Positions 45,819-46,876 of a stretch of DNA of 60,350 bases are shown here, piece by piece; positions within the stretch are counted from its first letter, which is position 1, and every line of letters starts with the position of its first letter. The translations under genes were made by a program, and so were the position numbers. The DNA lies in assembly GCA_016839995.1 (NCBI GenBank), contig JAEOTD010000055.1, positions 1 through 60,350 on the forward strand, in the 5' to 3' direction. The DNA comes from Candidatus Hermodarchaeota archaeon. Its GTDB lineage: Archaea > Asgardarchaeota > Hermodarchaeia > Hermodarchaeales > Hermodarchaeaceae. The notes under the pieces were generated by a model. That model saw only the letters and a list, made by a program, of their open reading frames with translations, was not told the origin of the DNA and made no database searches.

Positions 45819-46876
45819 CTATTTGGTTTTAGTGGAAGCTTTCCGTCGCCAAGCAGCTGGATAAGTTCCCGCGGGTAGAACAACGCGTCGCGTATCGGCA
45901 ACAATGCCCGATTGGGCTTCAAGAATTTGCTTACTGTTCTTCTGGGCAACTGCGAGGGCAACAAGTTCGCCCTTGAGCGTTTTGAGACCAATGAAATCAC
46001 CAGGCTCAATGTCATCATGCAGTTGTAAGACACCTGTTACTGCAAGGTTAGCACCATGACAGATTGCGCCAACTGCTGTGTCCCGAATTATAATTTGTGG
46101 GAGATGTTGAATCCCATCCTCAAGAGGATGGAGGTACTGACGAAGCAGACGTTCTTCCTTTTCTTCGTGCCAAAATTGATAGGCGTCTTTGACATCATAA
46201 AGTGAGGCGAGGGTCGAATCTTCTTTGAAGGGTCCAGTACGGGTGCGACGTAATTCGGCCATGTGGGCTCCACCCCCAAGAACCTCACCCAGATCATACA
46301 CGAGTTTCCGAATATAGGTGCCAGCTTGACATCCTACTCGAAATAGCACATTCTTTTCATCAATTTCGAGTATTTCGAGGTAGTAGATTTTTCGAGTGCG
46401 TACACGGCGTTTAACAGATGAACGCACAGGAGGACGTTGGTAAATCGTTCCAACAAATTCAGCAGCCGCTTCGCGGATTTTTTTAGATTTCTCTTTCTGG
46501 TGAAGGCGCATTATACAGATGTACTCTTTCCCAGAGGTGAGTAGTGCATTGGCGATTTTAGTGGCATTCCCCAGCATAACTGGGAGTACACCTGTCACCT
46601 GGGGATCCAGCGTTCCTGAATGACCTGCCCGATTCACACTTAGAATACGTTTTACCCAAGACACTACTTCATGGCTGGTCGGCCCAGGAGGCTTTTCCGG
46701 GCTTGGAAAGGGCAGCAAACCCCTTAGACCAAACTATCCAGATTAATGATACCATCCTGAAACAATTCCGGGATGGTTCGTTCCTGAGGGACACGACCAA
46801 ATGCAGGATTCGTGGTGTCTTCAGCACGCGTAATCCATTTCCGTTTCTTATCCGCAGGTAGCTGCGACTTCGTCAG
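45819..46876 (-). CDS. cbf5: H/ACA RNP pseudouridine synthase Cbf5 (TruB family), two exons: 46876..46736 and 46694..45819
   Basis: Exon 1 encodes (CTG)TKSQLPADKKRKWITRAEDTTNPAFGRVPQERTIPELFQDGIINLD. Exon 2 encodes [18 protein letters not shown]...[16 protein letters not shown]...PUA domain. The joined product is ~338 aa, a normal Cbf5 length. The ORF track shows only a truncated 299-aa piece. Confidence 0.85.
46695..46735 (-). other. 41-nt bulge-helix-bulge intron within the cbf5 coding sequence
   Basis: Central helix CUGG (46741-46738)/CCGG (46700-46697). Bulges AUA (46737-46735) and AAA (46696-46694). Inner helix GUUUGG/CCAAGC. Contains the in-frame TAA at 46726-46724. Confidence 0.75.

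What the first reader, a model, noticed from the sequence alone, without database searches (positions are those of the whole stretch)
46695..46735. cbf5 coding sequence is interrupted by a 41-nt bulge-helix-bulge intron
- **Two frames.** The Cbf5 N-terminus (...LPADKKRKWITRAEDTTNPAFGRVPQERTIPELFQDGIINLD) is read in one frame (46876..46736) and hits TAA at 46726-46724. The rest ([18 protein letters not shown]...GHSGTLDP...) starts at 46694 in another frame. The 41 nt between them are not a multiple of 3.
- **Fold.** On the sense strand they form a 4-bp helix CUGG(46741-46738)/CCGG(46700-46697). This helix is flanked on opposite strands by 3-nt bulges AUA (46737-46735) and AAA (46696-46694). A 6-bp inner helix GUUUGG/CCAAGC and a terminal AAGGG/CCCUU hairpin follow.
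- **Predicted splice.** Cutting after the second nucleotide of each bulge, as at the 37/38 tRNA intron, joins GAU|AAG. That gives [14 protein letters not shown], the uninterrupted motif found in archaeal Cbf5.
- **Context.** Endonuclease-spliced cbf5 mRNA introns have been described for a few Crenarchaeota (Aeropyrum, Sulfolobus). They are otherwise very rare in prokaryotic protein genes. Standard gene callers would report a truncated or pseudogenised cbf5 here, as the ORF track does.
- **Weak point.** The outer helix is weak (one U-A pair, then an asymmetric loop before CAGGA-GGU/GCC-UCCUG), so this is a relaxed BHB.
Basis: partly seen in the sequence, partly recalled or inferred. Interest (0 to 1): 0.78.

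Follow-up and report, generated by a model that had tools for sequence, protein, structure and literature searches.

The report
Spliced mini-intron in Asgard cbf5
The gene for the RNA-modifying enzyme Cbf5 in this Asgard archaeon is interrupted by a 41-base intron that folds into the motif cut by the tRNA-splicing enzyme; the intron sits at a different place in the gene, and in a different phylum, from the only well-known archaeal protein-gene intron.

Summary
cbf5 lies on the minus strand as exon 1 (46876..46736), a 41-nt insert (46735..46695) and exon 2 (46694..45819). Removing the insert restores the gapless [14 protein letters not shown] motif.

The insert folds into a 4-bp helix (CUGG/CCGG), two 3-nt bulges and a 6-bp inner helix with a hairpin.

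Twelve distinct related loci, all Asgard (Promethearchaeota) MAGs or metagenome contigs, carry a 38-43-nt insert at the same codon boundary. All have the same fold and show compensatory base changes. In all 13 sequences, the rule "cut after bulge nucleotide 2" gives the in-frame Asp|Lys junction.

The motif is therefore a relaxed HBh' type.

The classical crenarchaeal cbf5 intron splits the catalytic Asp codon 30 codons downstream, so this is an independent, non-orthologous intron. An intronless Hermodarchaeota-like group is nested inside the intron-bearing clade, which suggests one gain and one precise loss.

I found no paper reporting cbf5 introns in Asgard archaea. Splicing itself is inferred: no transcript data were available.

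Verdict: a real feature, a new member of the known class of archaeal BHB pre-mRNA introns. Interest is moderate to high.

The parts
46736..46876 (-). cbf5 exon 1 (47 codons, LTKSQLPADKK...GIINLD). It encodes the N-terminal DKCLD-type extension and the start of strand beta-1. The probable initiation codon is CTG 46876-46874.
   Evidence: Translation. tblastn q1-47 matches in all relatives. dN/dS is 0.03-0.16 against 11 relatives. Relatives' separate gene calls for this piece hit PF08068 DKCLD. Start-codon comparison.
46695..46735 (-). 41-nt BHB (HBh'-type) intron. An equivalent cut one nucleotide downstream (46734..46694) gives the same mRNA, because A follows both cut sites.
   Evidence: Frame break. 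Same-site inserts of 38-43 nt in 12 distinct relatives. The covariance model built from them scores 63.4 bits here, and the next best hit in the window scores 11 bits.
45819..46694 (-). cbf5 exon 2 (291 codons plus stop). It contains KPPGPTSHE, the catalytic GTLDP, TruB_N, TruB_C_2 and PUA domains.
   Evidence: Translation. Pfam domains of the truncated gene calls. 390-bit alignment to P. abyssi Cbf5 2AUS.
46738..46741 (-). Central helix H, 5' strand (CUGG, exonic: Leu-Asp codons CUG GA).
   Evidence: Pairs with 46700-46697. 100% of cells are paired in 13 sequences. The types are CUGG/CCGG, CUGG/CCAG, CUGG/CUAG and a compensatory CUAG/CUAG in L112.
46735..46737 (-). 5' bulge AUA. The predicted cleavage is between 46736 and 46735.
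   Evidence: It is a 3-nt bulge in the MFE of all 13 homologues and in the RNAalifold consensus. A cut after bulge nucleotide 2 ends exon 1 exactly at the Asp codon in all 13.
46729..46734 (-). Inner helix h', 5' strand (GUUUGG).
   Evidence: Pairs with 46706-46701. Three of the 6 pairs show changes on both sides (UA to CG or GC; GC to UA or UG). 89.6% of cells are paired.
46707..46725 (-). Terminal hairpin of the intron (AAGGGGU-UUGCU-GCCCUUU).
   Evidence: MFE folds. The hairpin is present in all homologues, with variable loop and stem sequence.
46701..46706 (-). Inner helix h', 3' strand (CCAAGC).
46697..46700 (-). Central helix H, 3' strand (CCGG, intronic).
46694..46696 (-). 3' bulge AAA. 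The predicted cleavage is between 46695 and 46694. No conserved outer helix follows it.
   Evidence: The H 3' strand is followed by AA|A (AG|A in L115) in all 13 sequences, and exon 2 then starts with the Lys codon. The adjacent U-A pair (46742/46693) is present in 9 of 13. The distal helix is unsupported.
46886..46891 (-). Shine-Dalgarno-like AGGAGG, 9 nt upstream of the CTG that aligns with the GTG starts of relatives.
   Evidence: Sequence. Comparison of upstream regions.

Best explanation
The 41 nt at 46735..46695 (minus strand) are an archaeal bulge-helix-bulge intron in the cbf5 pre-mRNA.

**Proposed mechanism**
1. After transcription the RNA forms a 4-bp helix. One strand is the exonic CUGG (codons Leu-Asp). 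The other is the intronic CCGG at the 3' end of the intron.
2. On the 5' side the helix is flanked by a 3-nt bulge (AUA), then a 6-bp intron-internal helix and a hairpin. On the 3' side it is flanked by an AAA stretch. This is a relaxed HBh' motif.
3. The splicing endonuclease EndA cuts after the second nucleotide of each bulge, at 46736|46735 and 46695|46694. In Asgard archaea EndA is the heterotetrameric (alpha-beta)2 type with the L1 loop, which gives broad specificity.
4. The RNA ligase RtcB joins GAU|AAG.
5. The mature mRNA encodes a 338-residue Cbf5 with the uninterrupted ...[16 protein letters not shown]... motif. The intron is released, probably as a 41-nt circle.

Without splicing, only a roughly 50-residue N-terminal peptide can be made, because a TAA stop lies 3 codons into the intron.

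**Evolution.** The intron was gained once in the ancestor of a Hermodarchaeota-related Asgard clade. This was independent of the classical cbf5 intron, which splits the catalytic Asp codon.

**Shown.** The anatomy, the conservation of the site, covariation of H and h', purifying selection on both exons, and exact in-frame junction prediction in 13 sequences.

**Inferred.** Actual cleavage and ligation, the identity of the enzymes in this genome, and any regulatory role.
For: - **Frames and insert.** Two frames separated by 41 nt.
- **Fold.** The MFE fold gives H, the 3-nt bulge, h' and the hairpin.
- **Conserved site.** The same codon boundary is interrupted by 38-43 nt in 12 distinct relatives from independent assemblies.
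- **Independent prediction.** RNAalifold recovers H and h' on its own.
- **Covariation.** 91.5% of cells are paired, with 11 double-change cells against 4.7 expected (0/500 shuffles). Slid registers give 13-52%.
- **Same architecture everywhere.** All 13 MFE folds share it.
- **Junction rule.** Cutting after bulge nucleotide 2 gives Asp|Lys in frame in all 13, although intron lengths differ (38, 40, 41, 42 and 43 nt).
- **In-frame inserts still carry stops.** All 42-nt inserts contain stop codons.
- **Selection.** Exon 1 dN/dS is 0.03-0.16.
- **Product.** The spliced protein aligns without a gap across the junction to Cbf5 2AUS: [17 protein letters not shown].
- **Enzyme.** Asgard archaea carry (alpha-beta)2 EndA with the L1 loop that allows relaxed BHB recognition (PMC5829648).
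- **Precedent.** Relaxed BHB motifs in crenarchaeal cbf5 pre-mRNA are cleaved by the hetero-oligomeric EndA (PMC2738675).
Against: - **No transcript evidence.** No junction-spanning protein fragment of the intron-bearing clade exists in the protein collection.
- **Weak 3' side.** The 3' bulge has no conserved outer helix. The adjacent U-A pair is present in 9 of 13, and the distal helix is no better than shuffles. Cleavage at the 3' site therefore depends on a broad-specificity enzyme.
- **Enzyme not seen in this genome.** No endA gene turned up among the 10 otherwise unidentified ORFs tested in the window. The other ORFs were not scanned against Pfam.
- **Modest single-sequence stability.** z = -0.79 for 101 nt and -2.1 for 53 nt.
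- **Mismatches in some relatives.** Three relatives (L002-L004) have a C-A mismatch in h'.
Confidence: 0.86

Rival explanations
1. Split gene. The two pieces are translated separately into a ~50-aa N-terminal peptide and a ~290-aa catalytic protein, which associate without RNA splicing (as in Nanoarchaeum split genes).
For: Gene callers do annotate two ORFs in several relatives: a DKCLD piece of 37-59 aa and a TruB_N piece of ~277 aa. The window has a TTG 24 nt upstream of the Lys codon, inside the insert.
Against: - There is no conserved start codon for the second piece. In 9 of 13 sequences the first ATG/GTG/TTG in the exon-2 frame lies 27-30 nt inside exon 2 and would delete the invariant KPPGPTSHE motif.
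- The break falls inside a contiguous structural element (INLD-KPPG) of solved Cbf5 structures.
- This model does not explain the covarying RNA helices or the exact BHB geometry.
Confidence: 0.04
2. Translational bypassing or programmed frameshifting. The ribosome hops over the structured 41 nt, as in phage T4 gene 60.
For: A stable hairpin and, in 6 of 13 sequences, a stop codon 3 codons after the take-off position.
Against: - There is no matching take-off and landing codon pair (GAU against ...GGAA|AAG).
- The stop position is not conserved; in L001 and L003 the first stop lies in exon 2.
- Insert length varies from 38 to 43 nt, while the BHB cut rule always gives the correct junction.
- Covariation involves pairing of exon nucleotides with the intron 3' end, which is what EndA needs and hopping does not.
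Confidence: 0.03
3. Pseudogene, sequencing error or assembly artefact: cbf5 is simply broken here.
For: The automatic gene call is truncated (P0001, 281 aa). No canonical start codon is present for exon 1 in the window.
Against: - The same insert site occurs in 12 other distinct sequences from independent projects (NCBI MAGs, JGI, ENA).
- Both exons are under strong purifying selection.
- Insert structure is conserved while its sequence drifts.
- cbf5 sits in its normal, conserved operon position: cmk, L14e, cbf5, tRNA, S13, S4.
Confidence: 0.01
4. It is the same (orthologous) intron as the classical crenarchaeal cbf5 intron, inherited from a common ancestor or moved by intron sliding.
For: The gene, size range (16-44 nt in Crenarchaeota, PMC2738675) and BHB class are the same. 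Both sites follow a Leu-Asp codon pair (CUG GAU here, CUN GAU at the classical site).
Against: - The classical intron lies in the catalytic Asp codon (phase 1, G|AU). That is 30 codons (90 nt) downstream of this phase-0 site.
- No intron sequence similarity beyond the generic architecture was apparent by eye when comparing the two sets.
- The classical site is uninterrupted in the window.
- Lineages with the classical-site intron (Borrarchaeum, Atabeyarchaeum, Bathyarchaeia, Desulfurococcales) are separate from this clade in the Cbf5 tree.
Confidence: 0.05

Closest known systems
Crenarchaeal cbf5 pre-mRNA intron (Aeropyrum pernix, Sulfolobus spp., most Desulfurococcales and Sulfolobales; Watanabe 2002, Yoshinari 2006, Yokobori 2009 = PMC2738675)
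   Same: - Same host gene.
- Same class of element: a short BHB or relaxed-BHB intron, 16-44 nt there and 38-43 nt here.
- Same predicted enzymes: hetero-oligomeric EndA plus a ligase.
- Same cut rule, after the second bulge nucleotide.
- Same consequence for gene callers: a truncated or split cbf5.
- Same evolutionary pattern of lineage-specific secondary loss.
   Different: - **Insertion site.** Here it lies between the Asp and Lys codons of INLD|KPPGP (phase 0). There it lies inside the catalytic Asp codon of GTLD|P (phase 1), 30 codons downstream.
- **Lineage.** Asgard, a Hermodarchaeota-related clade, against Thermoproteota.
- **Homology.** No detectable sequence homology between the two introns.
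- **Motif completeness.** The classical-site examples fetched here have a complete outer helix (GGGA/UCCC, hBHBh'). This intron lacks one.
Archaeal tRNA BHB introns, canonical (37/38) and non-canonical, including relaxed HBh' and hBH motifs (Marck & Grosjean 2003; PMC5829648; PMC4090602)
   Same: The recognition motif has the same geometry: a 4-bp helix, 3-nt bulges and cleavage two nucleotides into each bulge. The same enzyme is predicted. An intron-bearing tRNA-Ser(GGA) lies 26 nt beyond the cbf5 stop codon, on the opposite strand.
   Different: The host RNA is a translated mRNA, not a tRNA, so there is no mature-domain scaffold. One strand of helix H is built from coding sequence, so it is constrained by codons. 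In L112 a synonymous CUG to CUA change is compensated in the intron.
Eukaryotic unconventional mRNA splicing of HAC1/XBP1 (Ire1 endonuclease plus a tRNA ligase: Trl1 in yeast, RtcB in metazoa)
   Same: Both are spliceosome-independent removal of a short intron from an mRNA by a protein endonuclease that recognises RNA structure. The exons are then joined by the tRNA ligase, and the result is a change of reading frame or product.
   Different: The endonuclease differs (Ire1 kinase/RNase, not EndA/TSEN), and so does the motif (two 7-nt stem-loops, not a BHB). The resemblance is analogy only, and it rests on my own knowledge, not on a test made here.

Membership tests
Archaeal BHB (EndA-dependent) intron | Two 3-nt bulges on opposite strands separated by a 4-bp helix (H) | tested here: met
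   CUGG/CCGG with AUA on the 5' strand and AAA on the 3' strand. H is paired in 100% of cells in 13 sequences, including a compensatory CUAG/CUAG. In 9 of 13 sequences a fifth U-A pair could extend H. The 4 sequences with C at that position cannot form it.
Archaeal BHB (EndA-dependent) intron | Inner helix h' adjacent to the 5' bulge | tested here: met
   The 5-6-bp helix GUUUGG/CCAAGC has 89.6% of cells paired, and 3 of its 6 pairs change on both sides.
Archaeal BHB (EndA-dependent) intron | Outer helix h adjacent to the 3' bulge (needed for the strict hBHBh' form; absent in relaxed HBh' forms) | tested here: not met
Only a single U-A pair, present in 9 of 13. The element is therefore filed as the relaxed HBh' type, not strict hBHBh'.
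Archaeal BHB (EndA-dependent) intron | Cleavage after the second nucleotide of each bulge yields a functional product | tested here: met
   In all 13 sequences the rule joins GAY|AAR in frame (Asp-Lys), although the introns are 38, 40, 41, 42 or 43 nt long. The product aligns without gaps to 2AUS Cbf5.
Archaeal BHB (EndA-dependent) intron | Actual cleavage by EndA and ligation by RtcB; spliced RNA present in cells | not testable with these tools
   No transcriptome data were available. The protein collection holds no junction-spanning fragment from this clade.
Archaeal BHB (EndA-dependent) intron | Host encodes a broad-specificity EndA ((alpha-beta)2 with L1 loop, or epsilon2) able to cut relaxed motifs | not tested
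   Literature only: Asgard genomes analysed in PMC5829648 carry (alpha-beta)2 EndA with the L1 loop. No endA was found among the 10 unidentified window ORFs scanned. Genome-wide scans were exhausted.
Classical crenarchaeal cbf5 intron (orthologous intron family) | Insertion within the codon of the catalytic Asp (GTLDP) | tested here: not met
   In the window [12 protein letters not shown] is contiguous in exon 2. The break is at query residue 47/48, not 77. Classical-site introns in L047-L050, L054 and others break at residue 77.
Cbf5 / dyskerin (TruB-family) pseudouridine synthase (host gene) | DKCLD N-terminal extension, TruB_N catalytic domain with KPxGxTS and GTLDP motifs, and TruB_C_2 plus PUA domains | tested here: met
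   Precomputed Pfam domains on homologues (PF08068, PF01509, PF16198, PF01472). E = 5e-116 to P. abyssi Cbf5 2AUS over residues 5-329.

The most novel reading that the evidence does not exclude
cbf5 is a recurrent, selected target for EndA-dependent introns, not an accidental one.

At least two independent BHB insertion sites exist. One is this site in a Hermodarchaeota-related Asgard clade. The other is the catalytic-Asp site, seen in Thermoproteota and, as found here, in Borrarchaeum, Atabeyarchaeum and Bathyarchaeia. Some lineages also carry an intein in cbf5.

This would mean that production of the H/ACA pseudouridine synthase is gated by the tRNA/rRNA splicing machinery, as a post-transcriptional control circuit. 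It would also mean that protein-coding mRNA splicing by the tRNA-splicing enzymes was already in use in the archaeal relatives of eukaryotes, as a prokaryotic precedent for HAC1/XBP1-type splicing.
Probability: 0.2. Interest if true: 0.8.

Novelty: new member of a known kind. Interest (0 to 1): 0.62.

Why it matters
- **Rarity.** Introns in prokaryotic protein-coding genes that are removed by the tRNA-splicing endonuclease are extremely rare. The textbook case is a single intron family in crenarchaeal cbf5.
- **A second, non-orthologous intron.** This finding adds one in the same gene, in Asgard archaea, the closest known relatives of eukaryotes. It is conserved across at least a dozen species and shows one apparent precise loss.
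- **Annotation.** cbf5 is systematically mis-annotated as truncated or split in these genomes. About 30 truncated protein clusters appear. This affects marker-gene sets and completeness estimates.
- **An open question made testable.** Why is cbf5, of all genes, hit repeatedly? The options are regulation of pseudouridylation capacity by EndA activity, or a sequence or structure that attracts intron insertion. Two independent sites can now be compared.
- **A natural substrate.** It offers a relaxed HBh' substrate in a non-tRNA context for the Asgard (alpha-beta)2 endonuclease.

Tried and rejected
- **ARAGORN** found no tRNA in the window. Rfam then showed that it had missed an intron-bearing tRNA-Ser.
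- **Rfam** at E <= 1 over 45600-46950 gives nothing for the intron itself.
- **Other copies in the window.** A covariance model of the intron (R1), run with filters off over the whole window, found only the cbf5 site (63 bits against 11 or less). It is not a dispersed or mobile family here.
- **Spliced cDNA evidence.** A second database search with the 105 junction-spanning residues returned only sequences at or below 71% identity from other lineages, with no spliced form of this clade. It led nowhere.
- **endA in the window.** Ten unidentified ORFs were scanned against Pfam. They hit THUMP, CGI-121, RNA_binding, DUF2095, S24e, DUF359, Rpb7-like and PIN_9, and two had no hit. None was endA.
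- **First bootstrap tree script** timed out. It was rewritten and run successfully.
- **L106.** Its apparent break at residue 51/52 is a plain frameshift with no insert, so I did not count it as an intron.
- **L056 and L057.** Their ~1.5-kb in-frame gaps are LAGLIDADG inteins, not introns.
- **P0033** could not be fetched because the sample file was too large.
- **Models considered and rejected:** split-gene, ribosomal bypass, pseudogene or artefact, and orthology with the classical intron (see the rival explanations).
- **Group I/II self-splicing** was rejected on size (41 nt).
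Full report
**1. The observation**

On the minus strand, the reading frame ...LPADKKRKWITRAEDTTNPAFGRVPQERTIPELFQDGIINLD ends with the Asp codon at 46738-46736. It then runs through AGT TTG GTC into TAA at 46726-46724. A second frame starting at 46694 reads [35 protein letters not shown]... through to the stop at 45821-45819. The 41 nt in between (46735..46695) are not a multiple of three.

The mechanical ORF list shows only a truncated 299-aa ORF that starts at a TTG inside the insert. The database's own gene call for this sequence is a 281-aa fragment lacking the N-terminus (P0001).

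- helix H, CUGG (46741-46738) with CCGG (46700-46697)
- a 3-nt bulge, AUA (46737-46735)
- an inner helix, GUUUGG/CCAAGC (46734-46729 / 46706-46701)
- a terminal hairpin (46725-46707)
- an A-run (46696-46694) on the 3' side

Taken alone, the fold is only modestly better than shuffled sequence (z = -0.79 for 101 nt; z = -2.1 for the 53-nt core). The case therefore has to rest on comparative data.

**2. What the organism is**

The spliced protein's nearest database relatives are Asgard archaea. MAGs labelled Promethearchaeota are 83-87% identical, a Hermodarchaeota MAG is 67% identical, and Baldr-, Odin-, Loki-, Heimdall- and Thorarchaeota are 55-60% identical.

Nearly every relative above ~68% identity is a truncated gene call of 247-310 aa without the N-terminal DKCLD domain. 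Full-length calls appear only at 68% identity or below, plus one N-terminally short intronless call at 70% (P0025).

The gene neighbourhood is the conserved archaeal block EMC3-like, cmk, L14e, cbf5, (tRNA), S13, S4.

**3. Comparative test**

I fetched genomic loci for relatives from GTDB genomes, JGI and other metagenomes, and by exact-protein look-up.

tblastn of the spliced protein shows a break at query residue 47/48 in the window and in L001 (identical junction sequence in L061 and L062), L002, L003, L004, L112, L113, L115 and L116. An in-frame insertion lies at the same place in L108, L109 (L110 has the identical junction sequence), L111 and L114.

Extracting the junctions gave the following:
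- Every one has an insert directly after the ...IN-L-D codon and directly before the K-P-P/S-G-P codons.
- The insert lengths are 38, 40, 41, 42 or 43 nt.
- The 42-nt inserts keep the frame, but all contain stop codons, so they cannot be translated insertions.

RNAalifold on the 13 distinct sequences independently predicts H, the 3-nt bulge, h' and a hairpin.

Counting pairs for H + h' + the adjacent U-A pair gives these results:
- 91.5% of cells are standard pairs, against 84.8% in column shuffles (0/500 reach the observed value).
- There are 11 double-change cells against 4.7 expected (0/500).
- Register-slid controls give 13-52% paired.
- The inner helix occurs as GUUUGG/CCAAGC, GCUUGU/ACAAGC, GCGCG/CGCGC, GCCCG/CGGGC and GCUCG/CGAGC.
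- H occurs as CUGG/CCGG, CUGG/CCAG, CUGG/CUAG and, in L112, CUAG/CUAG. In L112 a synonymous change of the Leu codon (CUG to CUA) is matched by a change in the intron.

All 13 sequences give the same architecture in single-sequence MFE folds. Ten of the 13 have z between -2.1 and -5.3; the other three (L002, L003, L108) are weaker, z about -0.8 to -1.0, and L004 is -1.3.

The canonical rule, cleavage after the second nucleotide of each 3-nt bulge, joins GAY|AAR (Asp|Lys) in frame in every sequence, whatever the intron length. Because an A follows both cut sites, a cut one nucleotide further 3' at both sites would give the same mRNA.

**4. What is not supported**

It pairs in only 74% of cells across relatives, no better than shuffled columns (300/500), and it is absent from the RNAalifold consensus. 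The single U-A pair next to the 3' bulge exists in 9 of 13 sequences.

The motif is therefore the relaxed HBh' type. The 5' cleavage site is fully framed by H and h'. The 3' site is framed by H only.

This form needs a broad-specificity endonuclease. According to PMC5829648, Asgard archaea carry the (alpha-beta)2 EndA with the L1 insert that confers this breadth. According to PMC2738675, most crenarchaeal cbf5 introns also have unconventional BHBs cut by the hetero-oligomeric enzyme. I could not verify endA in this genome. It is not among the 10 unidentified ORFs of the window that I scanned.

**5. Both exons are functional and belong to one protein**

- Exon 1 has dN/dS of 0.03-0.16 against relatives, and exon 2 has 0.02-0.04 where measurable.
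- The spliced product aligns without any gap across the junction to solved Cbf5 structures: query [17 protein letters not shown] against 2AUS [17 protein letters not shown], E = 5e-116.
- A separate translation of exon 2 is not supported. In 9 of 13 sequences the first possible start in that frame lies 27-30 nt inside exon 2 and would delete the invariant KPPGPTSHE motif.
- Ribosomal hopping is not supported. There are no matched take-off and landing codons, and the position of the first stop varies.
- Artefact and pseudogene are excluded by recurrence in independent assemblies and by purifying selection.

**6. Relation to the known cbf5 intron**

Yokobori et al. [quoted passage not shown] They infer that it arose in the ancestor of Desulfurococcales and Sulfolobales and was later lost in some lineages.

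In my data a Desulfurococcales MAG (L054) breaks at query residue 77, the Asp of GTLDP, with the junction G|AU and a complete hBHBh' (GGGA-CUCU-bulge ... AGAG-bulge-UCCC).

The window's intron lies 30 codons upstream, between codons (phase 0). It shares no sequence with the classical intron beyond the generic architecture. The classical site is intact in the window. It is therefore a second, non-orthologous intron in the same gene.

A covariance model of it finds no other copy in the 60-kb window.

**7. Evolution**

A bootstrapped neighbour-joining tree of spliced Cbf5 proteins gave these supports (consistent with the larger tree):

| Grouping | Bootstrap support |
|---|---|
| Intron-bearing sequences plus the intronless Hermodarchaeota-like group (L005, P0006, P0010) as one clade | 98% |
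| The intronless Hermodarchaeota-like group alone | 100% |
| The intron-bearing sequences alone | 0% |

The simplest reading is one gain at the base of this clade and one precise loss. This mirrors the crenarchaeal story. It rests on a distance tree of a single protein and should be checked with species trees.

**8. Literature**

Full-text searches for cbf5 + intron + Lokiarchaeota and for cbf5 + Asgard + intron returned no paper. Related searches returned only the crenarchaeal work, EndA papers and reviews. The Atabeyarchaeia genome paper reports that 92-95% of tRNA genes have introns, but it says nothing on cbf5. Within the limits of the held library, the Asgard cbf5 intron appears to be unreported.

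**9. Mechanism and verdict**

- **Shown.** Anatomy, site conservation, covariation, in-frame junction prediction, and selection on both exons.
- **Inferred from established knowledge of archaeal BHB splicing.** EndA cuts at 46736|46735 and 46695|46694, leaving 2',3'-cyclic phosphate and 5'-OH ends. RtcB ligates the exons and circularises the intron. Unspliced mRNA yields only a ~50-aa peptide.
- **Speculative.** Whether the intron regulates Cbf5 production.

I rate the BHB-intron explanation at 0.86. It is a new member of a known kind: archaeal EndA-dependent pre-mRNA introns. It is notable for its Asgard host, its independent site in the same gene, and its apparent gain-and-loss history.

Noticed in passing
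window 45681-45793 (+): Intron-bearing tRNA-Ser(GGA), 113 nt. It has a 29-nt insert after nucleotide 37 and a long variable arm, and lies 26 nt beyond the cbf5 stop codon on the opposite strand. Rfam scores it at 48 bits, but ARAGORN reported no tRNA in the whole window. Its anticodon-arm MFE is not a textbook BHB.
   Followed up: partly
window 46874-46891 (-): cbf5 exon 1 has no in-frame ATG, GTG or TTG between the L14e stop (46918-46916) and the conserved LPADKK. The CTG at 46876-46874 lies 9 nt after AGGAGG and aligns with the GTG start codons of L108, L109, L113 and L114. L003 also has CTG there. A CUG initiation codon is likely.
   Followed up: partly
L047:3228-3266, L048:3228-3262, L050:3228-3272, L049:3228-3254; also L091-L093, L097, L100, L105: The classical cbf5 intron (inside the catalytic Asp codon, G|AU, 17-41 nt, full hBHBh' with GGGA/UCCC outer helix) is present in Asgard Borrarchaeum and Atabeyarchaeum, in a Bathyarchaeia MAG and in several unnamed metagenome contigs. 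This is well outside the Desulfurococcales and Sulfolobales, where it was thought to have arisen.
   Followed up: partly
L056:3555-5035 and L057:3474-4969: cbf5 of a Bathyarchaeota MAG and of Promethearchaeota DZ3S.51 carries a ~490-aa in-frame intein (Intein_splicing plus LAGLIDADG_3) near query residue 180. This is a third kind of interruption of the same gene.
   Followed up: yes
L005, P0006, P0010 (Hermodarchaeota-like): This intronless group is nested inside the intron-bearing clade: 98% bootstrap for the joint clade and 0% for the intron-bearers alone. That suggests a precise secondary loss of the intron.
   Followed up: partly
window 58972-60189, 50764-51450, 43623-44291, 42617-43777, 10453-11379, 55864-56526 (all -): Several ribosomal and RNA-processing proteins (the ORFs I took by eye and gene order to be S3, L15, S11, RpoD, Rrp41 and L5) carry long Lys/Pro/Ala/Glu-rich low-complexity tails. 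Examples are (KAKP)n repeats and a ~200-aa tail on the 405-aa S3 ORF.
   Followed up: no
one search hit list (e.g. P0121, P0122, P0130, P0131, P0142, P0216, P0222, P0223): Many short (95-180 aa) N-terminal Cbf5 fragments are called on long contigs (13-370 kb) from diverse archaea. This hints that interrupted cbf5 genes are far more common than is annotated.
   Followed up: no
window 30972-31472 (+) and 21417-21701 (-): Two ORFs (166 aa and 94 ORF codons) have no Pfam match. They lie in otherwise unassigned stretches, between the ORFs I took to be aIF2-gamma and aIF5B and next to the 277-nt ORF-free gap at 21701-21978. They may be spurious, or they may mark unannotated RNA or small genes.
   Followed up: no
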